From an uncultured bacterium (GTDB lineage Bacteria; Verrucomicrobiota; Kiritimatiellia; PWTM01): a stretch of 64,000 nucleotides of DNA. Under the pieces are notes generated by a model that was not told the DNA's origin, did no database searches, and was given only the letters and a program-made list of their open reading frames with translations. Made by a program: the position numbers and the translations under genes. The number at the start of each line of letters is the position of its first letter. Positions within the stretch are counted from its first letter, which is position 1. This document shows positions 1,609 to 16,658 of the stretch, one piece after another. The stretch is taken from positions 38,754 through 102,753 of the forward strand of contig CALLFZ010000020.1 in NCBI GenBank assembly GCA_938010045.1. The letters run 5' to 3'.

Positions 1609-1609
1609 C

Positions 1610-3354: not shown

Positions 3355-3388
3355 CTCTGCGCGCAGACACCCGAGGATCCGAATTCGG

Positions 3389-3709
3389 ATGAAACCGTAC
3401 GCAGTGATTGAAACAGGCGGAAAACAGTATCTCGTTCGGCCGGACGATCGTCTGACGATCGAGCGGATCGCCGCGGAGCCCGGCCAGACCGTGGCGCTGG
3501 CTCCGGTGCTGGCAATCTCCGACGGTTCGACGTTGAAGGTGGGCACCCCCGACCTGCCCGATGCGACCGTTTCGGCGCAGGTCCTCGGGCACAGCCGGGC
3601 CCGCAAGGTGATTTCGTATCGGAAAAAGCGCCGGAAGGGGTATCACCGCAAAGTCGGCCACCGGCAATCGGTCACGTCGGTCAGGATCGTCGGCATCCCG
3701 ACCCCCTGA
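3389..3709 (+). CDS. rplU: 50S ribosomal protein L21
   Basis: MKPYAVIETGGKQYLV... is the L21 signature. The longer track ORF (3182..3709) is an upstream in-frame extension; the ATG at 3389 gives a 106-aa product. Confidence 0.9.
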   Translation: MKPYAVIETGGKQYLVRPDDRLTIERIAAEPGQTVALAPVLAISDGSTLKVGTPDLPDATVSAQVLGHSRARKVISYRKKRRKGYHRKVGHRQSVTSVRIVGIPTP

Positions 3710-3727
3710 GCACCGGGAGGAACGGCC

Positions 3728-3991
3728 ATGGCGCATAAAAAAGGTCAGGGCACCAGTCGAAACGGACGCGATAGCCGCGGTCAGCGCCTCGGCGTCAAGT
3801 GCTTCGCCGGCCAGACGGTGCGCGCGGGGCACATCTTGGTGCGCCAGCGCGGCACCCGGCTGCACCCGGGGCGCAACGTCGGTATGGGGCGCGACTTCAC
3901 GCTGTTCGCGCTGGCCGACGGCGTGGTCGCCATGGACGCTCGTTCACGCCGCGTCCACGTCATTTCGGCCGCGCCGACGAGCTCCAACTGA
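3728..3991 (+). CDS. rpmA: 50S ribosomal protein L27
   Basis: [23 protein letters not shown] is the L27 N-terminus. The rplU-rpmA-obg order is conserved. Confidence 0.92.
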
Positions 3992-4033
3992 GCCGGGCTC
4001 GGTCGGGCCTTCGCGCGGCCCGGAGATCAGGCC

Positions 4034-5080
4034 GTGAAGGCGCCCACCTTTATTGACCGTGTCCAGGTCCACGTCCGCGCTGGACGCGGAGGCGACGGCG
4101 TTGCCACGTTTCGCCGCGAAAAACGCGTGCCCTGGGGCGGCCCAGACGGCGGCGACGGCGGCCGGGGCGGCGACGTGGTGCTGCGGGGCGACGCCTCGCT
4201 TGATTCTCTTCTCCACCTCTACTATCAGCCGCACCACCGTGCGGAAAATGGCATGCCCGGCCGCCGCAAGCAGCAAACCGGCCGCAGCGGGGCCGACTGG
4301 ATCATCCGTGTGCCCTGCGGCACCGAAGTCCGCAACGCGGCGGACGGCGCCTGGATCGGCGAGATCATGCACGACGGCGAACACCTCGTGGTGGCGCGAG
4401 GCGGCGCAGGTGGGCTCGGCAACCTCCATTTCGTCACGTCCACCCACCAGGCGCCGCGCGAATGCACGCCCGGCCAGCCCGGCGAGGAACGCAAGCTGCT
4501 GCTCGAGCTGAAGCTCATCTCCGATGTCGGCCTCGTCGGATTCCCAAATGCAGGCAAGTCCACCTTGCTCGGCGCGATCAGCCGAGCCCGGCCCCGCGTC
4601 GCGCCCTATCCGTTCACCACCCTCCATCCCACGGTCGGAGTCGTGCCGCTCGACGACGAGCGGACGCTGCGCGTCGCCGACATCCCCGGTCTCATTGCCG
4701 GCGCGCACCGAGGCGTCGGTCTCGGCCACGATTTTCTGCGGCATATCGAACGCACCCGCTTCCTCGTGCTGCTGATCGACATGGCCGGCACCGAGGGCCG
4801 GCATCCAGCGGACGACTTTTTTTGCCTCCGCCGAGAGCTCGAGATGTACGGGCGCGGACTGGACGAGCGGCCCTATCTGACCGTCGCCAACAAAATGGAC
4901 ATGCCCGATGCGGCGAAGCATCTCGAAGAGTTCGTGGCTCGCACCAGCGTCACTCCGTTAACGATTTCCGCGCAGGCGCGCACAGGCCTCGACACATTGA
5001 TCGCCACTCTCGCGGAGCGCATCGCCGAACTCGAGCGTGCCCCCCCATCGGCCGCCCCGCCTGCTCCGCCGCCGCCATGA
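4034..5080 (+). CDS. obg: GTPase Obg/CgtA
   Basis: An Obg fold N-terminal glycine-rich domain (GRGGDGVATFRREK...GGPDGGDGGRGGDV) is followed by a GTPase domain (GFPNAGKSTLL). Confidence 0.92.
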   Translation: MKAPTFIDRVQVHVRAGRGGDGVATFRREKRVPWGGPDGGDGGRGGDVVLRGDASLDSLLHLYYQPHHRAENGMPGRRKQQTGRSGADWIIRVPCGTEVRNAADGAWIGEIMHDGEHLVVARGGAGGLGNLHFVTSTHQAPRECTPGQPGEERKLLLELKLISDVGLVGFPNAGKSTLLGAISRARPRVAPYPFTTLHPTVGVVPLDDERTLRVADIPGLIAGAHRGVGLGHDFLRHIERTRFLVLLIDMAGTEGRHPADDFFCLRRELEMYGRGLDERPYLTVANKMDMPDAAKHLEEFVARTSVTPLTISAQARTGLDTLIATLAERIAELERAPPSAAPPAPPPP

Positions 5081-5256
5081 TGACCTGGTTGGTCTGGGTG
5101 GGCGTGGTGCTCGGCGCCGACGCGCTGATCGGGCTGCTGGGCCGCCGATGGTGGGCCCGTCATCTGCCCACCGTGCCCATCGCGCAGATCGCGACCGCCG
5201 AGGCCATCGTTGCGGTGATCGCGCTGGCACTGTATCTCCTGCTGAACCTCCGCTAG
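5080..5256 (+). CDS. Small hypothetical membrane protein (58 aa, two predicted TM helices)
   Basis: An ATG overlaps the obg stop (ATGATG). The product is hydrophobic (MMTWLVWVGVVLGADALIGLL...AIVAVIALALYLLL). No homology was recognised. Confidence 0.25.
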   Translation: MTWLVWVGVVLGADALIGLLGRRWWARHLPTVPIAQIATAEAIVAVIALALYLLLNLR

Positions 5257-5389
5257 CTTCGCCGGCCTCCTCGCCGCAGGTCCATCGCGGGCGCCCGCCT
5301 TCCCCACGGCGGCGCCCTGGGGCAAATTCCGCGGCGGCATCTCAGCGAACGCATCGCTGGTCGACCGCAACGAACGGTGAGGAGCGAGC

Positions 5390-6160
5390 TTATCCTGCGG
5401 GGCTCGCACGATGGTCCGCGCCGTTCTCGCGGAGATAACGGTCGAGCTCCTCCCAGCCCTCCGGCTTGCCGATCTCGTAAAACCGCGTCGGCGCGACCCA
5501 CGCGGCCAGTTCGCCGGCGGCAACGAGATCGCGAAGCATCACGGAAAGATCCAGCGGCGTCCGCGCGCCGACGTAGCGGCCGATCACCTCCCGCCGCAGC
5601 GCGAGGAGCCCCCAGTCAATCCACTCGGCCTCGCCGGGCGCGGCCGATTTCGAATAGAAGACGACACGACCCCGCTCAACCCGCGCGTTGCTTGAGTCCC
5701 ACCGGCCCTGATTGCGGAACACCGACATCATCGCCGGCGCTCCGCTCTCGAGAAATGCGCGCGCCATCGGCCGGTAGTCCGCGGGCAGATACGAGTCCCC
5801 GTACATCACAAAGCACCACTCGCGCAGGAGCTCCCGCGCATTCACCAGCGCCCCGCCGGTGCCGAGCAGCGCCTCCGGAGGCTCGCGCGAGTAAGCGACC
5901 CGCACGCCCCAACGCCTCCCGTCCCCAACGTACCGCTCGATCGCCTCCGCGCCGACGCCGACACACAACACCACGTCGCGCACATCGCTCTGCGCGAGCA
6001 GGTCCAACTGGTAATCGATGAACGGCCGCCCCGCCACCGGCAGGAGCGATTTCGGGCGGTCGCGCGCGATCGCCCGGATGCGCGTGCCAAGCCCGCCGCA
6101 CAGAATCGCCGCCTGCAGCCGCGTCGAGCCCGCCTCACTCCGCAGGGCCATCGAAGTCAT
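5390..6160 (-). CDS. Sugar-phosphate nucleotidyltransferase (HddC-like D-glycero-D-manno-heptose-1-P guanylyltransferase or mannose-1-P guanylyltransferase family)
   Basis: AAILCGGLGTRIR...KSLLPVAGRPFIDYQL is an NTP_transferase N-terminal motif. The product is 256 aa, and the gene sits next to a GHMP kinase and gmhA. Confidence 0.7.
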   Translation of the reverse strand: MTSMALRSEAGSTRLQAAILCGGLGTRIRAIARDRPKSLLPVAGRPFIDYQLDLLAQSDVRDVVLCVGVGAEAIERYVGDGRRWGVRVAYSREPPEALLGTGGALVNARELLREWCFVMYGDSYLPADYRPMARAFLESGAPAMMSVFRNQGRWDSSNARVERGRVVFYSKSAAPGEAEWIDWGLLALRREVIGRYVGARTPLDLSVMLRDLVAAGELAAWVAPTRFYEIGKPEGWEELDRYLRENGADHRASPAG

Positions 6161-7229
6161 CCGACTCCGCGAACTCCGCGACCACGCGCGCCCCGTGCCG
6201 GCACGGCAGCCAGCTCACGCGCGGCATCCCATGCGACGCCATGAACCCGTCGAGCTCCCGGCCGCGCTCGGGACAGTACAGCAACACGAACCCCCCCCCG
6301 CCGGCGCCGATGATCTTGCCGCCGAGCACGCCATAGTCGCGTTTCACCGTTTCGTAGAGCTCGTCCACAACCCCAAGGCTCACCGAAGACGACAGCCGCC
6401 GCTTGCATGCCCAGTGGTCGTCCATCAGTCGCGCGAACCGGTCGAGGTCCCGGTCCAGAACCGCACGGTGGATTTGGCGGCCGATTTCGCGGATCTCGAG
6501 CAGCGACTCGACCACCCGCGCGTGGTCGGGCCGGTCGGCGTGGCGCGCGGCCTCGTCCTGGTGCTGCAGCACCGCGGTCGCCGAGCGCTGAATCCCCGTG
6601 TAGTACATCCGGGCCTTGTGCGCGAGCTCCAGCGCGAGCGTGGAATCCACCGGCACCGAGCCCACCGTGACCGTTCCGTCCCGCGCAATCTCGAGCGTAC
6701 GGAAGCCGCCGAACGCCGCGATATACTGGTCCTGCTTGCCCACCGGCTCCTTCAGGATCTCCATCTCGATGCGGCAGGCCTCCTCCGCGACCTCGGCGGG
6801 CGGCGCCGGCGTCCGCCGCCACGCGCGCAGCGCGGTCAGCAGCCCCACGAGATAGGCGCCGGACGACCCCAAGCCCGTCCGCGCCGGCAGGTCGGCGAGG
6901 CTTGCGAGCTCGATGTACTCGCGTACGCCGTACTGCCGCAGCGCCTCCCGCGCGAGCGGGTGCCGGATCTCGTCCACCGAGTTCACGACCTCCACCTGGG
7001 AGTAGCGGATCAGCGTCTTGCGCTCCGTCACCGGCAGCCGGTGCAAAAAAACGTACATAAATTTGTCGATCGCCATCGTGAACACGAAACCGCCGTGCTC
7101 GCGATAGAACGATGGCAGGTCCGTGCCACCCCCGCCGAGCGTGATCCGAAACGGTGTCTGCGTGATGATCATCGGCGTTGCGCCCCCCGCGCCGACCGCG
7201 CCGCTGCGGTGCGTCGGCTCATATGTCAA
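6135..7229 (-). CDS. GHMP-family sugar kinase (HddA-like D-glycero-D-manno-heptose 7-phosphate kinase)
   Basis: ITLGGGGTDLPSFY and LPARTGLGSSGAYLVGLL are GHMP motifs. The true start may be the internal M20 (7172). Confidence 0.68.
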   Translation of the reverse strand: MTYEPTHRSGAVGAGGATPMIITQTPFRITLGGGGTDLPSFYREHGGFVFTMAIDKFMYVFLHRLPVTERKTLIRYSQVEVVNSVDEIRHPLAREALRQYGVREYIELASLADLPARTGLGSSGAYLVGLLTALRAWRRTPAPPAEVAEEACRIEMEILKEPVGKQDQYIAAFGGFRTLEIARDGTVTVGSVPVDSTLALELAHKARMYYTGIQRSATAVLQHQDEAARHADRPDHARVVESLLEIREIGRQIHRAVLDRDLDRFARLMDDHWACKRRLSSSVSLGVVDELYETVKRDYGVLGGKIIGAGGGGFVLLYCPERGRELDGFMASHGMPRVSWLPCRHGARVVAEFAESDDFDGPAE

Positions 7230-7950
7230 ACCCGCTGTTCACCGCGTCGCGCCGGAACATCCGCACGGTCTCGAGCGAAAACTCCTCGAGGTCCTTGCCG
7301 AACTGCTCCGCCTTCGCGAGCAGGTCCGGCGTGACGGTGATGATCGGACAGCCAATCCACTCGGCCTGCAAAATATTCAGCGCCTCGCGCGGGCTCGCCC
7401 ACAGCAGCTCCGCGCGCGGACGCGGGCGCAGAATCTCGAGCGCTTCGCGCATGATCGGCACCGGGTCGCGGCCCGAGTCCGCAATCCGTCCCGCGAACAC
7501 TGAGACGAACGTCGGACACGCCGGGTCCAGCGCCTCCGCGACCTCGCGCACTTGCCGCAGCGTCATGATCGCGGTGATGTTGAGCGGGATGCCCTCCCGC
7601 GAGAGCCGCGCGATCAGCGGGCACGAGGATTCCCTCCGCGTGTTCGTGATCGGGATTTTGACGTGGACGTTCGTCCCGAGCGCACGCAGCACTCGCGCCT
7701 GCCGTTCCATCTCATCGAATTCATCGGAGAACACCTCGAACGAGACCGGAAGATCGGGCACGATCCGGAGCACCTCGCGCGCAAAGTTCAGATAGTTCGT
7801 CACGCCCGCGCGCGCCATCAGCGTGGGGTTCGTCGTAAACCCCTTCACGAGGCCCCGGGCGCGCGCTGCCGCGATCGAGTCGAGATCGGCCCCGTCGGAA
7901 AAGATCTTGATCTTCAGCTCCTCGAGACGGGGAACCCGGTCCTGCGTCAT
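7219..7950 (-). CDS. Transaldolase / fructose-6-phosphate aldolase family protein
   Basis: IKIFSDGADLDSI...GFTTNPTLMAR is the TalC/FSA-type transaldolase signature. The start at 7950 overlaps the gmhA stop (ATGA). Confidence 0.75.
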   Translation of the reverse strand: MTQDRVPRLEELKIKIFSDGADLDSIAAARARGLVKGFTTNPTLMARAGVTNYLNFAREVLRIVPDLPVSFEVFSDEFDEMERQARVLRALGTNVHVKIPITNTRRESSCPLIARLSREGIPLNITAIMTLRQVREVAEALDPACPTFVSVFAGRIADSGRDPVPIMREALEILRPRPRAELLWASPREALNILQAEWIGCPIITVTPDLLAKAEQFGKDLEEFSLETVRMFRRDAVNSGFDI

Positions 7951-8591
7951 GGACGGACCTCCCGGGGCGCGGCCGCGCCCCCCCGATCCAGATGCTCCCA
8001 GTGCGTGGAGGCCATCTTCAGGCGTGGATGCGAGACCAGCAAATGCGCGACGACCGATTGGAACGCCTCGGTGTGCGGCGTAATCGCGGCGGAATTGACC
8101 ACCGGAATCACCACGCACGCATCGGCCGTGCGGGCCGTGAAGCCGCCATCGCGCCCGACGATACCCACCACCGTCGCCCCCACCCGTTTCGCCTCGCGGA
8201 TCGCCTCGACGATGTTCGGGCTGACATTACGTGCCTCGTCGCCGCCGCCGACCGAAAACACGAGCACGCCGTCTCGTGGGCCGATACGGCTGCCGCGCAG
8301 CCACGCCGCGAGCGCGCCCGCCCAGCCCTCGTCGTTGATGCGCGCGGTGAGCTCCGCAACGTTATCCGTCGGCGCATACGCCTCGAAGCCGCAGAGCTTC
8401 CGAAAGTCGTTCACCGCATGGCTGGCGTTGGCGGCGCTGCCGCCAACGCCGAGCACGAAGAGCCGCCCGCCGCGATCGCGAACCGCCGCCAGCCGCTCGG
8501 CGGCTGCCGCGATCGCCGCGCGGTCGAGCCGGCGTGCGACCTCGGCCGTCTCTTCGAGGTGCTGCTCAATAAACCGGTCGGCTTCGCTCAT
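7947..8591 (-). CDS. gmhA: SIS-domain sedoheptulose-7-phosphate isomerase
   Basis: RLFVLGVGGSAANASHAVNDFRK is the SIS phosphosugar-isomerase motif. A start at the internal ATG (8591) gives 214 aa, a typical GmhA length. Confidence 0.75.
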   Translation of the reverse strand: MSEADRFIEQHLEETAEVARRLDRAAIAAAAERLAAVRDRGGRLFVLGVGGSAANASHAVNDFRKLCGFEAYAPTDNVAELTARINDEGWAGALAAWLRGSRIGPRDGVLVFSVGGGDEARNVSPNIVEAIREAKRVGATVVGIVGRDGGFTARTADACVVIPVVNSAAITPHTEAFQSVVAHLLVSHPRLKMASTHWEHLDRGGAAAPREVRP

Positions 8592-9583
8592 CCGGCTCCT
8601 CCGCGATACACCGCCTCCACCACCGCCAGCGCCGCGCGCGCATCGGCCAGACCCGTCGCCGGCGCCCGCATCTGGCGGATGTCCTCCGCAAATTCGGCCC
8701 ACTCCACGGTCCACGACGTATCCGGGCCCGGGAACTCCCAGATCGTCGTCTCCGGCGGCCCCATCTCGGGCAACATGCGGTACCACGCCAGCCGTTCGAC
8801 CCCGTAGCTGCCGCCGAGCCCTTCGATGTGCAGCTTCCCGCTGCGCCCGTAGATCTCCAGCGAAAACAGATTCTTCCACTCCGAGCAGCTCGCGTGCAGA
8901 AACGCCACCTGGCCACCCGCGGTGCGAAGCATCAAAAACGCGTTGTCATCCACCGTCATCGCCCAGTACAGCGTCGTCGCGAGCCCGCGCACCTCCGTGA
9001 ACTCGCCGAGAAACCATCGCGCCAAATCAATGAGATGCACGCCCTGGTCGATCAGCTCGCCGCCGCCGGAGCGCACCGGATCGGCGCGCCATTCGCGCTC
9101 GTATCCAGGGCGCCCGCCGTGCCCGTAGCGCCCGCGCACCATCATCATCGGACCGAGTTCGCCGCGCGCGAAGATCTCCCGCGCGCGGCGCAACGCGGGA
9201 TGATAACGGTGGTTGAATCCGACGTGCACGAGGCGGGCGGCCGCAGCCGCTGCGCGCGCGATCGCCTCCACCTCCGCCACCGTCCGTCCAGCCGGCTTTT
9301 CGACCAGCACGTGTTTGCGCGCCTCGAGCGCCGCCATGGCCACCGACGCCAGCGCATCGTGCGTCGTCGCCACGATCACGACGTCCAGATCATCCCGGCG
9401 CACCAGATCGTCGACCGAATGGCAGACCGCGGCGCCGGCCGGAACAGCCAGCGCCTCCGCACGCCTCTGGTCGAGGTCCGCGCACGCCACGAGCCGATCC
9501 TGTCCGAGCGCGGCGGCGCGCTTGCGGCCGATCAAGCCGCAGCCGACGATACCGACCCGCAGTTGGGATGCCGCAGGGCTCAT
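8588..9583 (-). CDS. Gfo/Idh/MocA family NAD(P)-dependent oxidoreductase
   Basis: LRVGIVGCGLIGRKRAAAL is a Rossmann N-terminus and the C-terminal domain is GFO-like. The stop overlaps the gmhA start. Confidence 0.7.
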   Translation of the reverse strand: MSPAASQLRVGIVGCGLIGRKRAAALGQDRLVACADLDQRRAEALAVPAGAAVCHSVDDLVRRDDLDVVIVATTHDALASVAMAALEARKHVLVEKPAGRTVAEVEAIARAAAAAARLVHVGFNHRYHPALRRAREIFARGELGPMMMVRGRYGHGGRPGYEREWRADPVRSGGGELIDQGVHLIDLARWFLGEFTEVRGLATTLYWAMTVDDNAFLMLRTAGGQVAFLHASCSEWKNLFSLEIYGRSGKLHIEGLGGSYGVERLAWYRMLPEMGPPETTIWEFPGPDTSWTVEWAEFAEDIRQMRAPATGLADARAALAVVEAVYRGGAG

Positions 9584-10491
9584 CACGACCTCGTCGCCGT
9601 GCCCGAGTCTACCGGATCGCCCCAGTCGAGGCCACGGTCGCGCGGCACGATGCGCCTCAGCGTGTACAGATCGGACTGTCCGATCTCGCCCGCACGGTCG
9701 CCGAGCGTCGGCCAAGGATCCCAGACGGCACTAATCAGCCGACCGGTGATCCCGGCGGCTGCGTCCGAGGCCATCCATACCGCACAGCGCGCAGCGCGGT
9801 CGAGCGCGGTCGCGTCATTGGCCTCGAGCGCGCGCCGCGCCGAGGCCACCTCGCGCTCGCCCGCCGCCTCCGCGCCCGCCGCGGCGACCTCGCGCAGCAT
9901 CGCGGTGGGCAAGACGCCGGGAGCCAGCGCGAGCACTCGGATACGGCGACCACGCAGCTCCTCGGCGACGCATTCGGTGAGCCGCACGATCGCAGTCTTC
10001 GACGCCGCATAGGCGCTGAAATTCGGCCGCGGGCCCGTCGCCCCGCCGCCGGCCACATTGATGATCACTCCGCCGTCGGCCATTCGCGGCGCCAAGTCCG
10101 CGATGAGCCGTGCGGGCGCAAGCAGATTGACGCGGATGGTTTCGACCCACCCCGCCCACGTCGGACCGGCGCTGCTCAGCGGGCCGATCGGCCCCTGAAC
10201 GCCGGCATTGTTCACTAAAATATCCAACGGACGTCCGAACCCGTCCAGCACGGGCAGAAGGCGGTCCGCCGGCGAGATGTCGCTCTGCGAGAGATCCACA
10301 CCCGCGCCGGTGGCCGTCTGACCGCTCCGAGGCGGCAGCGACTCGGCAACGCGCCGCACATCTGCCTCACGGCGGGATACGAGCAGAAGCGAAGCGCCGG
10401 CCTCCCAGAATCGGCGCGCGACCGCCTCCCCCAGCCCGCGGCTCGCACCGGTGACCAACGCGAGGCGGCCCGCGAGCGATGGCCCACTCAT
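9583..10491 (-). CDS. Short-chain dehydrogenase/reductase (SDR) family oxidoreductase
   Basis: LALVTGASRGLGEAVARR is the TGxxxGxG motif. The stop and start overlap neighbours on both sides. Confidence 0.72.
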   Translation of the reverse strand: MSGPSLAGRLALVTGASRGLGEAVARRFWEAGASLLLVSRREADVRRVAESLPPRSGQTATGAGVDLSQSDISPADRLLPVLDGFGRPLDILVNNAGVQGPIGPLSSAGPTWAGWVETIRVNLLAPARLIADLAPRMADGGVIINVAGGGATGPRPNFSAYAASKTAIVRLTECVAEELRGRRIRVLALAPGVLPTAMLREVAAAGAEAAGEREVASARRALEANDATALDRAARCAVWMASDAAAGITGRLISAVWDPWPTLGDRAGEIGQSDLYTLRRIVPRDRGLDWGDPVDSGTATRS

Positions 10492-11444
10492 GCGCGGGCC
10501 TCCAGCAACCAAGGGTTCGCTCGCAGATAGCGCAACGTCCGGACCACCGCGTCGCGGATCGAGAGCTTCGGCGTCCAGCCGAGCGACCGAATCCGCCGTG
10601 TGTCGAGGAAAATGAACGGGCTATCGCCCACCCAGCCGCGAATGCCGCCCGTGTAGCGCAGTCGCGGCCTCACCCCCAGCTCCTCGCAGATCCAACGAAC
10701 AGAGTCGTTCACCTCGCAGTACTCGTCGGCACCGAGGTTGAAAATGTTCACGCGGTGGTCGGCCCGTTCGATCGCGAGCCGCATCGCGTCAATACAGTCC
10801 TGCACGTAGAGATAGGACTTGCGCTGATGTCCATCGCCGAGCACCTCGAGCTCCCCGGGGTTGATGAGCAGCTTGCGGTAAAAGTCGAAGACGTGGCCGT
10901 GCGAGTAGTGCTCTCCGAGGATCGAAACGAAGCGGAAGATCCACGCCTGAAATCCAAACCCCTCGCAGTAGGCCTCAATCAGTCCCTCGCCGGCCAGCTT
11001 CGATGCGCCATACAGCGAGGTTTGCACTGGGAACGGCGCATCTTCGGGCGTTGGAAAGACCTCCGGTTCCCCGTAGATCGAGCCGGTCGAGGCGAACGCG
11101 ATTCTCCGTACGCCCGTCGTCCGCATCGCCTCGAGCACGTGGAAGGTGCCGATTGTGTTCTGTTCGAGATCCCGGCGCGGATGCTCGGTGCCGAACCGTA
11201 CATCCGCATTTGCCGCCAGATGCACCACCAGGTCCACCCCGTCCGTCGCGGCCGTGATCGCGGCCGGATCCAATAGATCGCCGCGCAGCAGCTCGAAGTT
11301 CGGCGCCTGGCGCACCGCATCGAGAAACCGCTCCTGGCCGGTGGAGAAGTTGTCGAAGACCCGAACTCGGTGACCCTCGTGGATGAGTCGCTGCGCGAGA
11401 TTGCTGCCGATGAATCCGGCGCCGCCGGTGATCAGGACCTTCAT
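10488..11444 (-). CDS. NAD-dependent sugar-nucleotide epimerase/dehydratase
   Basis: MKVLITGGAGFIGSNLAQRL is an extended-SDR N-terminus, with YxxxK downstream. Confidence 0.82.
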   Translation of the reverse strand: MKVLITGGAGFIGSNLAQRLIHEGHRVRVFDNFSTGQERFLDAVRQAPNFELLRGDLLDPAAITAATDGVDLVVHLAANADVRFGTEHPRRDLEQNTIGTFHVLEAMRTTGVRRIAFASTGSIYGEPEVFPTPEDAPFPVQTSLYGASKLAGEGLIEAYCEGFGFQAWIFRFVSILGEHYSHGHVFDFYRKLLINPGELEVLGDGHQRKSYLYVQDCIDAMRLAIERADHRVNIFNLGADEYCEVNDSVRWICEELGVRPRLRYTGGIRGWVGDSPFIFLDTRRIRSLGWTPKLSIRDAVVRTLRYLRANPWLLEARA

Positions 11445-12568
11445 GATGACCGGGAATCCGTCGGTTGTGTCGGGGCGGCGGCCGCCGCCAGCAGCTCGTC
11501 CACCGCCGCCTCGACGAGCCTCTCATCGAGCTCCTCGAGGCATGCCATTGGGCGCTCGTGCGTGCAACGAATGCCGTGTTTCGAGAAAAAATAGCAGGGG
11601 CTGCAGGCGAGACCAAGCCGGACGATTCGGCACGGCACCCCGTAGGGTCCGGTGGCGCGCGGATCGGTGGGGCCGACGATCTCGACGGTGGGCACGCCCA
11701 TGGCGGCCGCCACATGAGTCAGCAGCGTATCCCCGCACACGAACACCGCCATGCGCCGGATCAGCGCCGCGGTATCGAGAACCTGCCCGTCCGGCGCGGC
11801 CGTAATCCGCGCCGGGCCAAGGCCGGACCGTCGAGCCACCTCGTCGCGCAACGGCCGTTCCTCGGCGCTGCCGAACAGCAGTATGCGCGCCTCCGGGTGA
11901 CGCGACACCACGCGCCGGGCCAGTTCTGCCCAACGTGCGACCGGCCACCGTTTGAGAATCAGGTTCTTCGTGGTGCCCGACCCGGGATGGAAGCCAATCC
12001 ATGGCTGCCCGAGCGCGCCCAGCGACCGAAGCGCCGCCTCCGCGCGCGCTTCGTGATCCGGCTGCGGGAACAGCCGCGGCATGTGCGGGGGCGATCCTTT
12101 GAGCGGCAGGCCCAGCCCCTCGGTGAGGAGGCGCAGGTTGTTGTCGACGACATGGAGGCGGCGATCCTCCCGGACCACATTCGTCAGCAGCAGGCGCGGC
12201 CGCGCGCCGCAATTGCACATGAACTCGAAGCCAACGCGTTGTCGCGCGCCGATCAAAAACGTGATCAGGTTATACTCCAACCGGTTCTGCGGCATCACTG
12301 TGAACGAGAGGTCATAGTGCCGACGGCGCAGGCGGAGGCACTCGAGCACCGAGCGCCTTCGCCCGGCGGCCATGAAATCGAAGCCGAGCACCTCGTCCAC
12401 CGCAGGGTTGTGGGCGAGCACCTCGCGGGGCGGCGTCCCCTGCATGGTCAGCACCTCGATGCGCGCTCTCGGAAAGTGCCGCCGGACCTCGGCGATCAGC
12501 GGGGTCGCCAGCAGCGTGTCGCCCGCGCCGGCCAACGAGAGAACGAGGATTCGCCGGGGAACCGTCAT
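11441..12568 (-). CDS. Glycosyltransferase family 9 (heptosyltransferase-like)
   Basis: RILVLSLAGAGDTLLATPLI... and the later GDTLLTHVAAAMGVPTVEIVGPTD resemble ADP-heptose:LPS heptosyltransferase (RfaF/RfaC family). Confidence 0.68.
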   Translation of the reverse strand: MTVPRRILVLSLAGAGDTLLATPLIAEVRRHFPRARIEVLTMQGTPPREVLAHNPAVDEVLGFDFMAAGRRRSVLECLRLRRRHYDLSFTVMPQNRLEYNLITFLIGARQRVGFEFMCNCGARPRLLLTNVVREDRRLHVVDNNLRLLTEGLGLPLKGSPPHMPRLFPQPDHEARAEAALRSLGALGQPWIGFHPGSGTTKNLILKRWPVARWAELARRVVSRHPEARILLFGSAEERPLRDEVARRSGLGPARITAAPDGQVLDTAALIRRMAVFVCGDTLLTHVAAAMGVPTVEIVGPTDPRATGPYGVPCRIVRLGLACSPCYFFSKHGIRCTHERPMACLEELDERLVEAAVDELLAAAAAPTQPTDSRSS

Positions 12569-13806
12569 GCTCCCGGCGCCTCCCGCCAGAGCCACGCCAC
12601 ACGCGCGCCGAGCGCAACGAGCGCGGCCATACCGGCCACGGCCATCGCGGAAATCATCGCGTGCGGGTCATCCGCGCACCGGCCGAGCAGCACGGCAATG
12701 TACGCCGCCGCGACCGGCGCGAGCGCGGCGGCCGGTGCGCGCACCTGCTGTCGCGCCCACAGGTACTGCATCACGACGGTCGTCAGGGCCATCGGAATGA
12801 CCGACCACGCGTAGGCCCGCAGCAGCCGGATCATCACCGTGGTCTCCACGCCGTACATCGCCCGCAGCGCGAAGCCGGGTGCCACCGTAACCGCCGCCGC
12901 CAACGCCCCTGAGAGCGCGAGCGCCATGCCGGCCGGCTGCAGGAGCATGCGACGGCGGTCCGAGACTACCGCTCTGGGAAACATGGCCAGCACCAGGGGC
13001 ATCGGTAGAAACAAAACCGATCGGGCCAGCATCGCGGCCTTGCCATAGGCGGAGAAGACCGGGCCGTGCAAGAGGCGGGGCGCCAGAATGAGGTCAGCGT
13101 TCATCAGCGCGTACACGACGAACTGCCCGCCGGCCACCGGCAAACAATAACGGGCGAAGGGCCCAAGGCTCAGCCGTTCGGCGGGAGCCCGTCTCACCAC
13201 TTCGCGCAGCGGCCACAGCCCCACAAGCACGCCCGCCGCGACACTGGCCGCGTACACCCCGAGCATCGCTGCCGCGTCGCCGCCTGCGCGCGCCACCGGC
13301 CACGCCAGCCCCAGCCGTACCAACCCGGGCGCAAGCCCCGCCGCCGCCATCCAGCCAAACCGCTGCGCCCCCTGCAACGCGCCAGACACCAGCGGCGCAT
13401 AGAGGCTAATCCAAGCGATCACCCCCACCCACCACAGCGCGCCCACGCGCGAGACGCGTAACCACGCGTGCATCGGCGCCGCCGCGGCCCCCCACACCAG
13501 CAAGAGCAGCGCCCCCGTCATCGTGACCACCCGCGCCACGGAACCCACCAGGCGCCCCCACATCGCCTCGTCGCGCGCATGACAGTATTCCGCCGCATAC
13601 CGCGCCACCGCCACCTGCAGCGCGGCCGACGGCACCAGTACGATCCAGAGCAACCCCAGAAGGGATGCAAACGCGGCGTATTCGGTCGGCGCCATCCATC
13701 GGCCCGCGACCATGTGGACCGCGAGAAACAACAGCCCCGCGAGGCCGTTGCTCACGATCATCACGGCGGAATCGCGCGCAAGGCCGAGGTCCCACCGCAG
13801 TTTCAT
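12565..13806 (-). CDS. Polysaccharide biosynthesis protein / oligosaccharide flippase (Wzx/MATE-like), multi-pass membrane
   Basis: The product is about 413 aa and strongly hydrophobic, with 10-12 predicted TM segments. It ends a glycan gene cluster. Confidence 0.55.
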   Translation of the reverse strand: MKLRWDLGLARDSAVMIVSNGLAGLLFLAVHMVAGRWMAPTEYAAFASLLGLLWIVLVPSAALQVAVARYAAEYCHARDEAMWGRLVGSVARVVTMTGALLLLVWGAAAAPMHAWLRVSRVGALWWVGVIAWISLYAPLVSGALQGAQRFGWMAAAGLAPGLVRLGLAWPVARAGGDAAAMLGVYAASVAAGVLVGLWPLREVVRRAPAERLSLGPFARYCLPVAGGQFVVYALMNADLILAPRLLHGPVFSAYGKAAMLARSVLFLPMPLVLAMFPRAVVSDRRRMLLQPAGMALALSGALAAAVTVAPGFALRAMYGVETTVMIRLLRAYAWSVIPMALTTVVMQYLWARQQVRAPAAALAPVAAAYIAVLLGRCADDPHAMISAMAVAGMAALVALGARVAWLWREAPGA

Positions 13807-13840
13807 CCCGCTGCCCGTCCCCCGCGCGCCGCCAGCGCCC

Positions 13841-14488
13841 TTACCTGGCGGCGGAGGGCATCTGCGGATCGTGCCGCCGCTCAAACGCCGCGATCTCCGG
13901 CTCGAACTCCAACGTCTGCCGGATCTCGTCCAGCCCCTCCATCAGCGTTCGCCGAGCCGCCTCATCCATCGAAAACCGAAACTCGAGGGGTTGTGGCGTG
14001 TGGAGCGTCACGGTCATGCGCTCGAGATCCACCGTGGCTTCGAGTCCCTCCCGGGCCGCGGTCTCGCGGGCGATCGCCTCGACCTCCGGCTCCGAGAGCT
14101 CGACGGTGACCAGTCCGTTGCGGGTCGCGTTGCTCCGGAAAATCTCGGCAAACGCCGCGACCCGCTCCCCGTCGCGCATCTGCCAGGGGGCGATCACAGC
14201 ACGAAACCCGTACTGCTGGATCGCCCACACCGCATGCTCCCGGCTCGAGCCGCAGCCGAAATTATTCCGGACCACCAGGATGCTGGCGCCCGCGAACCGC
14301 GGCTGATTCAGCTCGAACGCAGGATTGGGCGAGCCGTCGGGTAGATACCGCCAGTCGAAAAACAGCGCCGGCGCGAAGCCGGTACGCCGAACCGACTTCA
14401 AGAACTGCTTGGGGATGATCTGGTCCGTATCCACGTTCGCCCGATCCAGCATGGCAACGCGGCCGCGATGACGAAGAAACGGTTCCAT
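13841..14488 (-). CDS. leuD: 3-isopropylmalate dehydratase small subunit
   Basis: VDTDQIIPKQFLK...NFGCGSSREHA is the LeuD signature. Confidence 0.9.
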   Translation of the reverse strand: MEPFLRHRGRVAMLDRANVDTDQIIPKQFLKSVRRTGFAPALFFDWRYLPDGSPNPAFELNQPRFAGASILVVRNNFGCGSSREHAVWAIQQYGFRAVIAPWQMRDGERVAAFAEIFRSNATRNGLVTVELSEPEVEAIARETAAREGLEATVDLERMTVTLHTPQPLEFRFSMDEAARRTLMEGLDEIRQTLEFEPEIAAFERRHDPQMPSAAR

Positions 14489-14512
14489 CTCGTCGCTCCC
14501 CTCGAATGGTCC

Positions 14513-15916
14513 TCAAGCGGCCCAGTGTCTCAGGTCAACGAACCGACCGGCGATCGCGGCGGCGGCGGCCATCGCCGGGCTCACCAGGTGGGTACGTCCC
14601 CCCTTGCCCTGGCGGCCCTCGAAGTTGCGATTCGAGGTCGCGGCACAGCGTTCGCCCTCCGCGAGCCGGTCAGGGTTCATCGCTAGACACATGCTGCACC
14701 CCTGCCGGCGCCATTCGAACCCCGCCGCGCGGAAGATGCGGTCGAGCCCCTCGGCCTCCGCTTGACGCCGCACCTGCGCGGAGCCCGGCACCACCATCGC
14801 GCGCACTCCCGCCGCGACGCGACGGCCATGCGCGACCCGCGCCGCCTCGCGCAAATCCTCGATGCGGCCGTTCGTACAGCTTCCAATGAACACCACCTGC
14901 ACCGGAACCTCGGTCATGCGCTGGCCCGGCCGCAATCCCATGTAGCGGAGCGCCCGCTCGGCGTCCTGCCGGCTGTAGCCCGGCACCCGGTCCGGTTCGG
15001 GAATCGGCTGGTCCACGTCCACCACCATCCCAGGACTCGTACCCCACGTCACCTGCGGCGCCACCTGGTCGGCCGCGATCGTCACCTCGCGGTCGTACCG
15101 GGCGTCGGGATCGGAGGCCAGCATTCGCCAACGCTCGATCGCCCGCTCCAGCGCCGCCCCGCGCGGGGCATACGGCCGATCCCCCGTGGCGATGAACTGA
15201 AAGGTCGTCTCATCCGGGGCCACCAGCCCCGCCCGCGCCCCGGCCTCAATGCTCATGTTGCAGATCGTCATCCGGCCTTCCATCGACATCGCCCGCACCG
15301 CCTCACCCGCGTACTCCAGCACGAAGCCCGTCGCACCCGCCGTGCCGATGGTGCCAATCAACTTCAAAATGAGATCTTTGGGCGTCACCGGCGGACGCAG
15401 ACGGCCGGCGAACTCCACGCGGAATACCTTGGACTTGCGCTGGCGTAGTGTCTGCGTCGCCAGGACGTGCTCAACCTCGGAGGTGCCGATCCCAAACGCC
15501 AGCGCACCAAACGCGCCGTGTGTCGCGGTGTGGGAATCGCCGCACACGATCGTCGTCCCCGGCAGCGTCAGCCCAAGCTCAGGACCAATGATGTGCACGA
15601 TGCCGTTGCGCTCATCATCCAGGCCGAACAACCGAATGCGAAACTCCCGACAGTTCGCCTCGAGCGCCGCGATCTGCTCGCGCGCGACCGGATCGCTGAT
15701 CTCGCGCCACTCGTCCGTCGGCACGTTGTGATCCATCGTCGCAAACGTCAGATCCGGCCGTCGAACCCGCCGACCCGCCAACCGCAAACCGTCGAACGCC
15801 TGCGGACTGGTCACCTCGTGCACCAGATGCCGGTCAATGTAGAGAAGAGCCGTGCCATCACCGAAGTCTCTGACAACGTGGCACTCCCAAACTTTTTCGT
15901 ACGTGGTTCGACTCAT
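14513..15916 (-). CDS. leuC: 3-isopropylmalate dehydratase large subunit
   Basis: [15 protein letters not shown]...[15 protein letters not shown] is an aconitase-family LeuC N-terminus. The start was placed at the internal ATG (15916) because the longer ORF reads through the tRNA. Confidence 0.9.
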
Positions 15917-16320
15917 GAGCCTGACATCATACGGCCCGAAATACCGATGCGCAAGCGACCACCCACGATTCCCGTGCCCCCACGTCCGACGCCGCCGAAC
16001 CCTGCAGACGGACGGCCGAACGGACGGCAGGTTTCGAAACGGTGTTTCCAAGGATTGGACGATGATACCGAGCAGCCATCCAAACCTTGGACGCGACTCA
16101 ATCGCGGGCGGCCCCACCGTAGGGGGAACCGGCCGCCCACCTCGGCGCCGTGCCGCGGCCAACTCACAACACCTCGGCCATCCGTGGCGCCGACGTCGCT
16201 GGGCACTTCCGCTCCGACGCCCGCGATCTGCAAGGCGGTATTCTGCGGCGTACATGGCTGGCCGGATCGTTTCCGAGCTCCGGCGCCGGAGCGGTGCCTG
16301 CGAGCCGGCGGGGTTGTCCG

Positions 16321-16354
16321 GTGCCTGTCGCCGCTCTTCGGTGGGGACAGGCAC
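16321..16354. repeat. Short hairpin copy of the GGGGACAGGCAC / GTGCCTGTC repeat family (9-bp arms, 16-nt loop)
   Basis: The sequence is GTGCCTGTCgccgctcttcggtgGGGACAGGCACAAG. The same 15-mer GGGGACAGGCACAAG occurs at 51206. Confidence 0.45.
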
Positions 16355-16517
16355 AAGTACAAAATCGGCGCGGGTCCAGCTGGGCCATCGGCGCGCCGGG
16401 CACGGTACAGCGCCGAGTGCTGATCCGCCCCGCCCGATGCGCTGACACGAAACGGTACTCCGCGAAGCCCAGAGAGTCCCACCGAGCGGCCGAAGCGCAG
16501 ATGGTCGAGCGCCGGGA

Positions 16518-16594
16518 TGGTGCGCCTGCCGCGGATCGAACGCGGAACCTTCAGCTCCGGAGGCTGACGCTCTGTCCAATTGAGCTACAGGCGC
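16518..16594 (-). tRNA. tRNA-Arg (anticodon CCG)
   Basis: The reverse complement folds as a cloverleaf: acceptor GCGCCUG/CAGGCGC, D-arm GCUC/GAGC, anticodon stem UCAGC/GCUGA with loop CUCCGGA, T-arm CCGCG-UUCGAUC-CGCGG, and an encoded CCA. Confidence 0.85.
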
Positions 16595-16658
16595 ACGCGA
16601 GCGGCTAAGTTTCGCACGCGCGGCGGGGCTTGGCAAACTGGGTCGAACCCCGTCCCGA

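What the first reader, a model, noticed from the sequence alone, without database searches (positions are those of the whole stretch)
5390..13806. Translationally coupled nine-gene cluster predicted to make and transfer a modified heptose (GDP-heptose-like route)
GmhA, an HddA-like GHMP kinase and an HddC-like nucleotidyltransferase are the signature set for nucleotide-activated D-glycero-D-manno-heptose. A GmhB phosphatase is not seen in the cluster. Three redox enzymes follow: Gfo/Idh/MocA, an SDR and an NAD-dependent epimerase/dehydratase. These are reminiscent of the DmhA/DmhB-type 4,6-dehydratase and reductase that make 6-deoxyheptoses in Campylobacter and Yersinia. A GT9 heptosyltransferase and a Wzx-like flippase come next. 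The combination predicts a deoxy or epimerised heptose in LPS core, O-antigen or a capsule/S-layer glycan. This is a pathway not characterised in this group of organisms, to my knowledge.
Basis: partly seen in the sequence, partly recalled or inferred. Interest (0 to 1): 0.7.

Follow-up and report, generated by a model that had tools for sequence, protein, structure and literature searches.

The report
Transaldolase-fed higher-sugar nucleotide pathway operon
A real nine-gene operon in an uncultured Kiritimatiellia bacterium belongs to a widespread, uncharacterised pathway that builds a nucleotide-activated seven-carbon (possibly eight-carbon) sugar for the cell surface, using its own transaldolase and a 4-epimerase instead of the 6-deoxy-heptose enzymes first proposed.

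Summary
Nine co-directional minus-strand genes fill 5390-13806, and six of the eight junctions are start/stop overlaps. The unnamed ninth gene is a transaldolase.

- The SIS isomerase, GHMP kinase and nucleotidyltransferase are nearest to GmhA, HddA and HddC. All score far below the equivalog cut-offs, so they form a distinct subfamily.
- The "epimerase/dehydratase" falls in the GDP-sugar 4-epimerase subgroup (275 bits to P. horikoshii PhGal4E_1). It lacks the dehydratase acid/base pair, so the DmhA/DmhB 6-deoxy idea fails.
- No GmhB-type phosphatase lies anywhere in the 64 kb. More distant relatives carry one directly after the nucleotidyltransferase, in one case fused to it.

The core (transaldolase, SIS, kinase, nucleotidyltransferase, 4-epimerase) recurs in synteny, usually with a HAD phosphatase. 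It occurs in Kiritimatiellia, Verrucomicrobiota and Lentisphaerae, in archaea, and in partial form in Chloroflexota. I found no paper describing it.

Its enzyme set mirrors the lincosamide GDP-octose route family for family (LmbR/N/P/K/O/M). The best reading is a GDP-heptose of the gluco/galacto series, made from transaldolase-supplied sedoheptulose-7-phosphate, further oxidised and reduced, then handled by GT9 and a Wzx-like flippase. An octose product is not excluded.

The parts
12565..13806 (-). Wzx-like MOP-superfamily flippase, 413 aa. First gene of the cluster; its ATG lies 34 nt after the leuD stop.
   Evidence: No Pfam or NCBIfam hit. Only 19 homologues were found, two of them with PF01943. 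The AF2 model has pLDDT 89.6. The best PDB fold is the lipid III flippase WzxE, 9g9p, TM 0.77, followed by MATE and MurJ.
11441..12568 (-). GT9 (heptosyltransferase-family) glycosyltransferase, 375 aa. ATGA overlap with the Wzx-like stop.
   Evidence: PF01075 101 bits. TIGR02195 heptosyltransferase II scores 106.8, below the cut-off of 134.6. Best PDB hit is WaaF, 1psw, 70.5 bits.
10488..11444 (-). Extended-SDR NDP-sugar 4-epimerase of the GDP-sugar 4-epimerase subgroup, 318 aa.
   Evidence: PF01370 177 bits. PDB hits: 3ehe A. fulgidus GalE-1 299 bits; 8rdg P. horikoshii PhGal4E_1 275 bits. PhGal4E_1 is a characterised promiscuous GDP-sugar 4-epimerase (PMC12171764). Y145, K149, R83 and H182 are kept; P80 is Ala and N174 is Ser. 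There is no TDE dehydratase motif.
9583..10491 (-). Classical short-chain dehydrogenase/reductase, 302 aa.
   Evidence: PF00106 130 bits. No close characterised relative. It is the least conserved module gene, 39-52% identical among relatives.
8588..9583 (-). Cytoplasmic Gfo/Idh/MocA NAD(P) oxidoreductase, 331 aa. TGATG overlap with the SDR stop.
   Evidence: PF01408 and PF22725. The best PDB relatives are sugar-ring dehydrogenases: 4h3v 98 bits, levoglucosan dehydrogenase 81, DgpA 77.
7947..8591 (-). SIS-domain ketose-phosphate/aldose-phosphate isomerase, a divergent GmhA relative, 214 aa.
   Evidence: PF13580 43.8 bits. GmhA TIGR00441 scores 39 against a cut-off of 209. In the alignment to B. 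pseudomallei GmhA, H64 and H183 are kept, E68 is Asp and Q175 is Glu.
7219..7950 (-). Transaldolase of the TIGR02134 type, 243 aa.
   Evidence: PF00923 141 bits. TIGR02134 scores 330.7, above the cut-off of 281.95. The Schiff-base Lys (VKIP) and the Asp, Glu and Thr positions aligned with canonical short transaldolases are present. A transaldolase lies next to the kinase in every related locus examined.
6135..7172 (-). GHMP sugar-phosphate anomeric kinase, a sister subfamily of HddA/WcbL, 345 aa.
   Evidence: PF00288 and PF08544. HddA NF049969 scores 129 against 600. PDB HddA-type structures 3k85/4usk/4n3o score 108-121 bits against GalK 30. Homologues are 65-83% identical across PVC phyla and 342-346 aa long, which fixes the start at 7172.
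5390..6151 (-). Sugar-1-phosphate nucleotidyltransferase, 253 aa. It overlaps the kinase by 17 nt and is the last gene of the cluster.
   Evidence: PF00483 67.5 bits. NCBIfam scores nearly tie: archaeal GlmU 83.9, MurU 83.3, HddC 82.0, ManC 78.5. PDB: MurU 67 bits, HddC 53 bits. L001 shows the same 17-nt overlap.

Best explanation
The nine genes form one operon-like unit for a self-contained pathway to a nucleotide-activated higher-carbon sugar and its delivery to the cell envelope.

Proposed steps:
1. The cluster's own transaldolase makes the ketose phosphate precursor. Most likely this is sedoheptulose-7-phosphate, from fructose-6-P plus erythrose-4-P.
2. The divergent GmhA-like SIS isomerase converts it to an aldoheptose-7-phosphate.
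3. The HddA-like GHMP kinase phosphorylates C1.
4. A GmhB-like HAD phosphatase removes the distal phosphate. It is encoded next to the nucleotidyltransferase in more distant relatives, but not at this locus in this lineage.
5. The nucleotidyltransferase makes the NDP-sugar, probably GDP-linked.
6. The GDP-sugar-4-epimerase-type enzyme inverts C4 (gluco to galacto series).
7. The Gfo/Idh/MocA dehydrogenase and the classical SDR oxidise and re-reduce another position.
8. The GT9 enzyme transfers the sugar, and the Wzx-like protein flips a lipid-linked intermediate.

Shown here: gene order, family membership, intact catalytic residues and synteny across phyla. Inferred: substrate chain length, nucleotide, sites of oxidation and reduction, and acceptor.
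For: - Families and catalytic residues.
- The kinase is nearest to HddA/WcbL heptokinases (108-121 bits), far above fucokinase, mevalonate kinase and GalK.
- The SIS protein is nearest to GmhA, with the metal/catalytic positions kept or conservatively changed.
- Relatives carry a GmhB-like HAD-IIIA phosphatase directly after the nucleotidyltransferase (PRK08942, 127 bits). In L029 the two are fused in one 468-aa protein.
- The epimerase scores 275 bits to the characterised GDP-sugar 4-epimerase PhGal4E_1.
- GT9 is the heptosyltransferase family. The Wzx-like model matches the WzxE fold.
- The module is syntenic in Kiritimatiellia, Verrucomicrobiota and Lentisphaerae, in two archaeal loci, and in partial form in Chloroflexota.
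- A heptose of galacto configuration (D-glycero-D-galacto-heptose) is known in the N-glycan of Thermoplasma acidophilum. It has no assigned pathway in the papers read. It is what a gluco-forming isomerase plus a 4-epimerase would give.
- The cluster's G+C (0.67-0.70) equals that of the window, and its flanks are housekeeping genes. It is therefore a stable chromosomal trait.
Against: - Every core enzyme is far below the curated equivalog score for GmhA, HddA and HddC. Function is extrapolated across about 30% identity.
- Sedoheptulose-7-P is an ordinary pentose-phosphate intermediate, so a dedicated transaldolase kept in every locus is not obviously needed for a heptose.
- The only characterised pathway with the same enzyme set makes an octose.
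- The nucleotide is not determined by the nucleotidyltransferase.
- Two of the four PhGal4E_1 substrate-contact residues differ.
- The phosphatase is missing from the window and from the two closest genomes.
- Known GT9 enzymes use ADP-beta-heptose (established knowledge). That is not the alpha-GDP product expected from an HddA-type kinase.
- The link to T. acidophilum is indirect. No cultured Thermoplasma appeared among the top 120 archaeal kinase homologues.
Confidence: 0.5

Rival explanations
1. The module makes an NDP-octose, not a heptose. The transaldolase transfers a C3 unit from fructose-6-P or sedoheptulose-7-P onto ribose-5-P to give octulose-8-phosphate. The SIS isomerase makes octose-8-P. 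Kinase, phosphatase and nucleotidyltransferase then give GDP-octose, and the 4-epimerase and oxidoreductases tailor it. This is the logic of the lincosamide route LmbR-LmbN-LmbP-LmbK-LmbO-LmbM/L/Z, here feeding a cell-envelope glycan.
For: - There is a one-to-one family match with the lincosamide octose enzymes: transaldolase, SIS isomerase, GHMP kinase, HAD phosphatase, guanylyltransferase, SDR epimerase and NAD(P) oxidoreductase (PMC4351081 text and S1 document; PMC12945683).
- A transaldolase is present in every locus of the module, including a different (TalC-type, 222 aa) transaldolase in the archaeal versions. This is what a committed first step would look like.
- Three PVC variants (L003, L030, L031) also carry a 428-442 aa UDPG/GDP-mannose-dehydrogenase-family gene inside the module. 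LmbL/CcbL (436 aa) belongs to that family.
- In 2015 the closest non-lincosamide relatives of CcbK, N, O, P, Z and M were environmental Acidobacteria, Sorangium and Methanosarcina proteins.
- Lincosamine has the galacto configuration, produced by LmbM 4-epimerisation (recalled from the 2020 PNAS paper, which is not held). That matches a Gal4E-type enzyme here.
Against: - No Lmb or Ccb sequence could be obtained, so homology beyond the family level is untested.
- LmbR/CcbR is a TalC-type enzyme (222 aa; 47% identical to a Cellulomonas transaldolase). The window's enzyme is TIGR02134-type, a family annotated as the ordinary transaldolase of Staphylococcus and Coxiella.
- There is no aminotransferase and, in this window, no LmbL-like gene.
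- The linked transferase is GT9, the heptosyltransferase family.
- The literature searches retrieved no report of such an octose in a bacterial or archaeal envelope glycan.
Confidence: 0.27
2. [quoted passage not shown] A DmhA-type 4,6-dehydratase and a DmhB-type reductase then convert it to a 6-deoxyheptose.
For: HddA, GmhA and HddC are the best or near-best named families for the kinase, isomerase and nucleotidyltransferase. Three redox enzymes are present.
Against: - The only extended SDR is a 4-epimerase type: GMD TIGR01472 scores 51 against 415, dTDP-glucose dehydratase 137 against 365, the motif STGSIYGE lacks the dehydratase acid/base pair, and it scores 275-299 bits to Gal4E-type structures.
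- Gfo/Idh/MocA and classical SDR enzymes are not the families named for the characterised C. jejuni, Yersinia or Burkholderia heptose-tailoring steps (abstracts of PMC10680097 and PMC10440746, listed; otherwise established knowledge).
- All core scores are far below the equivalog cut-offs.
- The transaldolase is left unexplained.
Confidence: 0.06
3. The cluster in this lineage is a decaying or incomplete remnant. Loss of the HAD-unknown-NT2 segment has left a pathway that cannot remove the distal phosphate.
For: Seven related loci have HAD directly after the nucleotidyltransferase (L001/L005, L006, L007 and L008 also have a 243-aa unknown and a second NT). The window, L025 and L026 have the obg operon there instead.
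Against: - All nine ORFs are intact, with high third-position G+C (0.77-0.89) and retained overlaps.
- The same HAD-less nine-gene arrangement is kept in three genomes that differ by 20-26% in the Wzx-like protein. This indicates purifying selection.
- A phosphatase can be encoded elsewhere. Only 64 kb plus about 5 kb were inspected.
Confidence: 0.05

Closest known systems
[quoted passage not shown]
   Same: It has the same four enzyme families in the same logical order. The kinase's best structural relatives are HddA/WcbL, the isomerase's are GmhA, and the relatives' phosphatase is GmhB-like.
   Different: All scores are far below the equivalog cut-offs. A transaldolase is an integral, always-present member. 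The nucleotidyltransferase is no closer to HddC than to MurU or ManC. The tailoring enzymes are a Gal4E-type 4-epimerase, a Gfo/Idh/MocA enzyme and a classical SDR. The phosphatase is absent from this locus.
[quoted passage not shown]
   Same: It is the only characterised pathway with the same enzyme set: transaldolase, SIS isomerase, GHMP kinase, HAD phosphatase and nucleotidyltransferase, followed by an SDR epimerase and NAD(P) oxidoreductases. Some PVC variants also have an LmbL-family dehydrogenase.
   Different: That pathway is an actinomycete antibiotic cluster. Its transaldolase is TalC-type, not TIGR02134-type. It has an aminotransferase and feeds a thiosugar antibiotic, not a GT9/Wzx envelope route. 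Sequence-level relatedness could not be tested here.
GDP-sugar 4-epimerase subgroup of Gal4E (Pyrococcus horikoshii PhGal4E_1, PDB 8RDG/8RDH/8RDI; A. fulgidus GalE-1, 3EHE)
   Same: The 318-aa enzyme scores 275-299 bits over its full length. The catalytic Ser/Thr-Tyr-Lys, R83 and H182 are conserved (PMC12171764).
   Different: P80 is Ala and N174 is Ser. The natural substrate of the archaeal enzymes is not stated in the paper read. Here the enzyme sits in a higher-sugar pathway.
DmhA/DmhB (GDP-heptose 4,6-dehydratase and reductase) and the C. jejuni GDP-heptose tailoring enzymes
   Same: They act on GDP-heptose and belong to the wider SDR world.
   Different: There is no GMD-type dehydratase, no cupin epimerase and no GMD-like score here. 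The Gfo/Idh/MocA family is not among the families recalled for those systems (established knowledge).
LPS inner-core heptosyltransferases WaaC/WaaF (GT9) and the flippase WzxE
   Same: Pfam assigns GT9 membership, with WaaF as the best structure. The fold matches WzxE with TM 0.77.
   Different: The GT9 enzyme is below the heptosyltransferase I/II/III equivalog cut-offs. The expected donor would be an alpha-linked GDP-sugar, not ADP-beta-heptose. The flippase family has only 19 detectable members. More distant relatives use GT2 and GT-C (PMT-like) enzymes instead.

Membership tests
[quoted passage not shown] | Sedoheptulose-7-P isomerase that meets the GmhA equivalog model | tested here: not met
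   TIGR00441 scores 39.0 bits against a cut-off of 209; PRK13938 scores 40.6 against 320. GmhA is still the nearest family. H64 and H183 are kept, E68 is Asp and Q175 is Glu.
[quoted passage not shown] | HddA-type GHMP heptose-7-P kinase | tested here: inconclusive
   NF049969 scores 129.4 against a cut-off of 600. It is nonetheless the top family, and the top four PDB hits are HddA/WcbL-type at 108-121 bits, against GalK at 30.
[quoted passage not shown] | GmhB (HAD-IIIA) 7-phosphatase encoded with the pathway | tested here: not met
   No HAD gene lies in the 64 kb. It is also absent in L025 and L026. It is present directly after the nucleotidyltransferase in L001, L003, L006-L008, L010, L012, L030 and L031, and is fused to it in L029.
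[quoted passage not shown] | HddC guanylyltransferase (GTP-specific) | tested here: inconclusive
   NF049965 scores 82.0 against 300, tied with MurU 83.3, archaeal GlmU 83.9 and ManC 78.5. PDB: MurU 67 bits, HddC 53 bits.
[quoted passage not shown] | The product is a heptose nucleotide | not testable with these tools
   This needs enzyme assays or sugar analysis.
DmhA/DmhB 6-deoxyheptose branch | GMD-family 4,6-dehydratase with a catalytic Thr plus acid/base pair | tested here: not met
   gmd TIGR01472 scores 51.5 against 415. The active-site stretch is STGSIYGE. The best relatives are 4-epimerases.
Lincosamide GDP-octose pathway | Dedicated transaldolase in the cluster (LmbR) | tested here: met
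   PF00923 141 bits, with the Schiff-base Lys present. A transaldolase is found in every related locus. It belongs to a different transaldolase subfamily (TIGR02134) from the TalC-type LmbR/CcbR.
Lincosamide GDP-octose pathway | SIS isomerase, GHMP kinase, HAD phosphatase and nucleotidyltransferase (LmbN/P/K/O) | tested here: inconclusive
   All four families are present in the module. The phosphatase is present only in relatives. Orthology to the Lmb proteins is untested because no Lmb or Ccb sequence was accessible.
Lincosamide GDP-octose pathway | LmbM-type SDR epimerase, LmbL nucleotide-sugar dehydrogenase, LmbZ oxidoreductase and LmbS aminotransferase | tested here: inconclusive
   An epimerase and an NAD(P) oxidoreductase are present. 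There is no UDPG_MGDP_dh gene and no aminotransferase in this cluster. A UDPG_MGDP_dh gene is present in L003, L030 and L031. The Pfam family of LmbZ was not verified.
Lincosamide GDP-octose pathway | The substrate is octulose-8-P and the product is an octose | not testable with these tools
   This needs in vitro reconstitution.
GDP-sugar 4-epimerase subgroup (PhGal4E_1) | Full-length similarity, the catalytic triad and the four substrate-positioning residues P80, R83, N174 and H182 | tested here: inconclusive
   274.6 bits to 8rdg. The triad, R83 and H182 are kept; P80 is Ala and N174 is Ser.
TIGR02134 transaldolase | Score above the curated cut-off | tested here: met
   330.7 bits against 281.95.
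Glycosyltransferase family 9 | Pfam PF01075 above the gathering score | tested here: met
   101.1 bits against 22. It is below the WaaC/WaaF/WaaQ equivalog cut-offs.
Wzx / MOP-superfamily flippase | MOP fold and family-model match | tested here: inconclusive
   No Pfam hit for the window protein. The fold matches WzxE with TM 0.77 and probability 1.00. Two of the 19 homologues hit PF01943.

The most novel reading that the evidence does not exclude
The module is a primary-metabolism NDP-octose pathway: transaldolase on ribose-5-P, then isomerase, kinase, phosphatase and nucleotidyltransferase. It would supply an eight-carbon sugar to envelope glycans of Kiritimatiellia, Verrucomicrobiota, Lentisphaerae, Chloroflexota and sediment archaea. 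It would also be the evolutionary source of the lincosamide antibiotic's octose genes.
Probability: 0.25. Interest if true: 0.85.

Novelty: new variant of a known kind. Interest (0 to 1): 0.6.

Why it matters
Thousands of metagenomic proteins across at least four bacterial phyla and two archaeal lineages belong to this module. The searches run here found no paper describing it. Automated annotation labels its kinase 'galactokinase' or 'heptose-7-phosphate kinase'.

Working out its product would do three things:
- It would assign a function to a large block of 'known-family, unknown-substrate' genes in poorly cultured PVC bacteria and sediment archaea.
- It would explain how galacto-configured heptoses (or an octose) reach cell surfaces.
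- It would test whether the unusual lincosamide octose route is a borrowed primary pathway.

It also cautions against reading any SIS + GHMP kinase + nucleotidyltransferase trio as the canonical GDP-manno-heptose route.

Tried and rejected
1. I looked for a GmhB-type phosphatase in the window, using tblastn with the relatives' HAD and a Pfam survey of all called genes. None was found. A 227-aa HAD about 4 kb beyond the window's left end is HAD-IA type, not GmhB-like.
2. I tried to obtain Lmb/Ccb sequences for direct comparison. The papers PMC3486926, PMC3932030 and PMC7547251 are not held. The supplements of PMC4351081 contain only tables and primers.
3. I tried to tie the archaeal module to Thermoplasma acidophilum, whose N-glycan heptose is known. 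The top 120 homologues of the archaeal kinase are all from uncultured archaea. The module's archaeal transaldolase scores only about 135 bits to the T. acidophilum transaldolase, so it is not its orthologue.
4. Plasmid relatives of the kinase (Rhizobium, Solidesulfovibrio) are about 40% identical and lack the transaldolase. They are a different variant.
5. Promoter and terminator scans over 4900-17000 gave nothing above shuffled expectation.
6. Literature searches for transaldolase-containing heptose clusters or for octose nucleotides outside lincosamides found nothing relevant.
7. I considered an assembly artefact, because an ENA assembly breaks at window position 8538 inside the SIS gene. 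I rejected it: an independent Logan contig spans window positions 794-14237 at 99.985% identity, and two other genomes share the arrangement.

Full report
**Observation.** The window has 67-70% G+C and many spurious ORFs. Third-position G+C, start-codon analysis and independent gene calls agree on nine minus-strand genes between 13806 and 5390. In transcription order they are:
- a 413-aa membrane protein
- a GT9 glycosyltransferase, 375 aa
- an extended-SDR 'epimerase/dehydratase', 318 aa
- a classical SDR, 302 aa
- a Gfo/Idh/MocA oxidoreductase, 331 aa
- a SIS-domain protein, 214 aa
- a transaldolase, 243 aa
- a GHMP kinase, 345 aa
- a nucleotidyltransferase, 253 aa

Five junctions are ATGA overlaps and one is TGATG. 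The kinase and nucleotidyltransferase genes overlap by 17 nt. A 46-nt gap separates the transaldolase and kinase genes. The membrane protein has no Pfam hit, but its AlphaFold model (pLDDT 89.6) best matches the lipid III flippase WzxE (TM 0.77), followed by MATE and MurJ. The ninth is a transaldolase, and it is the only gene in the cluster that passes a curated equivalog cut-off (TIGR02134, 330.7 against 282 bits).

**Surroundings and assembly.**
- leuC and leuD lie directly upstream. The leuD stop is 34 nt before the first gene. A tRNA-Arg(CCG) lies further up.
- Downstream, on the other strand and converging on the cluster, are infB, truB, ribF, rplU, rpmA, obg and a 59-aa ORF.
- The rest of the window holds glycoside hydrolases, AraC regulators, secreted-type Gfo paralogues, sulfur amino-acid genes and the like. 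It has no HAD-family gene.
- One ENA assembly breaks at window position 8538, inside the SIS gene. An independent Logan contig spans 794-14237 at 99.985% identity.
- The organism is an uncultured Kiritimatiellia bacterium. The kinase of a named Kiritimatiellae MAG sits in the same 90%-identity cluster as the window's kinase.

**Comparative genomics.**
- The identical nine-gene arrangement, leuCD-[9 genes]-59 aa-obg, occurs in two other Kiritimatiellia genomes. Their Wzx-like proteins are 74-80% identical to the window's.
- More distant Verrucomicrobiota, Lentisphaerae and Kiritimatiellia loci keep epimerase-SDR-Gfo-SIS-transaldolase-kinase-nucleotidyltransferase. They continue with a GmhB-like HAD-IIIA phosphatase (PRK08942, 127 bits). 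Several (L001/L005, L006-L008) add a 243-aa unknown and a second nucleotidyltransferase.
- In L029 the nucleotidyltransferase and the phosphatase are fused in one 468-aa protein.
- L003, L030 and L031 add a UDP-glucose/GDP-mannose-dehydrogenase-family gene.
- The export and transfer genes vary. This lineage has GT9 plus a Wzx-like protein. Others have GT2, in some cases with PMT/ArnT-like GT-C enzymes.
- A Chloroflexota locus keeps transaldolase, nucleotidyltransferase and kinase.
- Two archaeal loci carry epimerase-kinase-SIS-HAD-transaldolase-nucleotidyltransferase. They are labelled Thermoplasmatales and Methanobacteriota; close relatives include MBG-D and Promethearchaeota MAGs. Their transaldolase is a 222-aa TalC type.
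- The kinase is 65-83% identical across PVC phyla, and at least 7,999 database proteins match at E <= 1e-10.
- The conserved core is therefore transaldolase + SIS + GHMP kinase + nucleotidyltransferase + 4-epimerase, usually with a HAD phosphatase. The Gfo and SDR genes are a PVC addition.

**What each enzyme is.**
- *Kinase.* Its best relatives are HddA/WcbL heptokinases (PDB 108-121 bits; NCBIfam HddA 129 bits). Fucokinase scores 51-75, mevalonate kinase 34-48 and GalK 30-33. It sides with HddA, but at 129 against 600 bits it is a sister subfamily and not an HddA equivalog.
- *SIS protein.* It is a distant GmhA relative (39-49 bits). Both His residues are kept, and the Glu and Gln metal/catalytic positions are replaced by Asp and Glu.
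- *Nucleotidyltransferase.* It scores equally for MurU, archaeal GlmU, HddC and ManC.
- *Transaldolase.* It keeps the Schiff-base lysine and the Asp, Glu and Thr positions aligned with canonical short transaldolases.
- *Extended SDR.* It scores 299 bits to A. fulgidus GalE-1 and 275 bits to P. horikoshii PhGal4E_1, a characterised and promiscuous GDP-sugar 4-epimerase. It keeps Tyr145, Lys149, Arg83 and His182, and lacks the Asp/Glu pair of 4,6-dehydratases. GMD scores only 51 bits against 415. It is an epimerase, and the DmhA/DmhB analogy fails.
- *Gfo enzyme.* Its nearest structures are sugar-ring dehydrogenases.
- *Classical SDR.* It has no close characterised relative.

**Mechanism.** I propose a self-contained route: ketose phosphate (from the transaldolase), aldose phosphate (SIS), 1,omega-bisphosphate (kinase), 1-phosphate (HAD, encoded elsewhere in this lineage), NDP-sugar (nucleotidyltransferase), C4 epimer (Gal4E-type enzyme), and a further oxidised and reduced derivative (Gfo + SDR). 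GT9 then transfers the sugar, and the Wzx-like protein flips a lipid-linked intermediate. Gene content, family membership, intact catalytic residues and synteny are shown. Chain length, nucleotide, modified positions and acceptor are inferred.

**Heptose or octose.**

For heptose:
- The nearest named families are GmhA, HddA and GmhB.
- GT9 is the heptosyltransferase family.
- D-glycero-D-galacto-heptose exists in the Thermoplasma acidophilum N-glycan. A gluco-forming isomerase plus a 4-epimerase would produce exactly this sugar.

For octose:
- Sedoheptulose-7-P is a standard metabolite, yet a transaldolase is kept in every locus. Two different transaldolase subfamilies are involved.
- The only characterised pathway with this enzyme set is the lincosamide GDP-octose route. 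There LmbR is the transaldolase, acting on ribose-5-P, followed by the LmbN isomerase, LmbP kinase, LmbK phosphatase, LmbO guanylyltransferase, LmbM epimerase, LmbL nucleotide-sugar dehydrogenase and LmbZ oxidoreductase.
- The LmbL family recurs in three PVC variants.

I could not obtain Lmb sequences, so the question stays open. I estimate heptose at about 0.5, octose at about 0.25-0.3, and other outcomes for the remainder.

**Comparison and novelty.** The cluster works like the GmhA/HddA/GmhB/HddC pathway but fails the membership scores for each enzyme. It does not resemble the DmhA/DmhB or C. jejuni tailoring sets. It matches the lincosamide sugar branch at the family level, in a completely different biological setting. 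I found no paper describing a transaldolase-containing heptose cluster, or an octose nucleotide outside lincosamides. I rate it a new variant of a known kind. The missing phosphatase in this lineage is real and clade-stable, and it remains unexplained.

**Verdict.** Interest is 0.6. The most novel reading not excluded is a primary-metabolism NDP-octose pathway, ancestral to or parallel with the lincosamide sugar route.

Noticed in passing
window 8538 (inside the SIS gene, 7947-8591): An ENA/NCBI assembly of the same population ends two contigs (89,752 bp and 50,245 bp) exactly here. The window joins them seamlessly, and a Logan contig (L021) bridges the point at 99.985% identity. The break may reflect strain variation in the population.
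   Followed up: partly
L001 11808-13857; L006, L007, L008 equivalents: In more distant relatives the nucleotidyltransferase is followed by a GmhB-like HAD, a 243-aa protein with no Pfam or NCBIfam hit, and a second nucleotidyltransferase. All three are absent from the window, L025 and L026, where the obg operon abuts the cluster.
   Followed up: partly
L029 10039-11445: A single 468-aa protein fuses the nucleotidyltransferase and the HAD phosphatase domains. This Rosetta-stone link ties the two steps together.
   Followed up: no
L003 11037-12350; L030 10022-11350; L031 4462-5748: A 428-442 aa UDP-glucose/GDP-mannose-dehydrogenase-family gene sits inside the module in three PVC variants. LmbL/CcbL of the lincosamide octose pathway belongs to the same family.
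   Followed up: partly
window 16518-16594 (-): tRNA-Arg(CCG), the only Rfam or ARAGORN hit in the window. About 600 nt of non-coding sequence separates it from the leuC start (about 15916).
   Followed up: no
window 26130-27608 and 27485-28963 (-): Two tandem Gfo/Idh/MocA paralogues in open frames of about 490 codens each, with long N-terminal extensions. They are unrelated to the cluster's cytoplasmic 331-aa Gfo enzyme (24-26% identity). A prepilin-type N-methylation-motif protein lies next to them at 25432-26421.
   Followed up: no
window 31137-36419: A second GHMP kinase (31137-32414) lies beside a sodium:solute symporter, two AraC regulators and a class II aldolase. This looks like a sugar-catabolic locus, not part of the finding.
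   Followed up: no
window 5077-5256 (+): A conserved 59-aa ORF overlaps the obg stop by 4 nt. It is also called in L021, L025 and L026 and has no Pfam hit.
   Followed up: no
window 20218-23502 (-): An undecaprenyl-diphosphatase (BacA) lies next to an open frame of about 820 codons (694 aa as called in L018) that encodes an FAD-dependent oxidoreductase with a Golvesin C-terminal domain.
   Followed up: no
window 45343-47363 (+) and 47326-48291 (-): A GT2 and GT4 glycosyltransferase pair is followed by a tyrosine recombinase (XerC/D-like), about 32 kb from the cluster.
   Followed up: no
L027 (Rhizobium leguminosarum pRL31b3) and L028 (Solidesulfovibrio magneticus pDMC1): Plasmid-borne relatives of the kinase (about 40% identity) sit in different sugar clusters without a transaldolase. 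The Rhizobium cluster has SIS, a 649-aa HAD-IIIA protein, a GHMP kinase and a flippase-like protein. The S. magneticus cluster has a kinase with transketolase-like E1 subunits, a radical SAM protein and an aminotransferase.
   Followed up: partly
window 9583-10491 compared with relatives: The classical SDR is much less conserved among related loci (39-52% identity) than its neighbours (61-88%). This suggests a relaxed or shifting specificity at that tailoring step.
   Followed up: no
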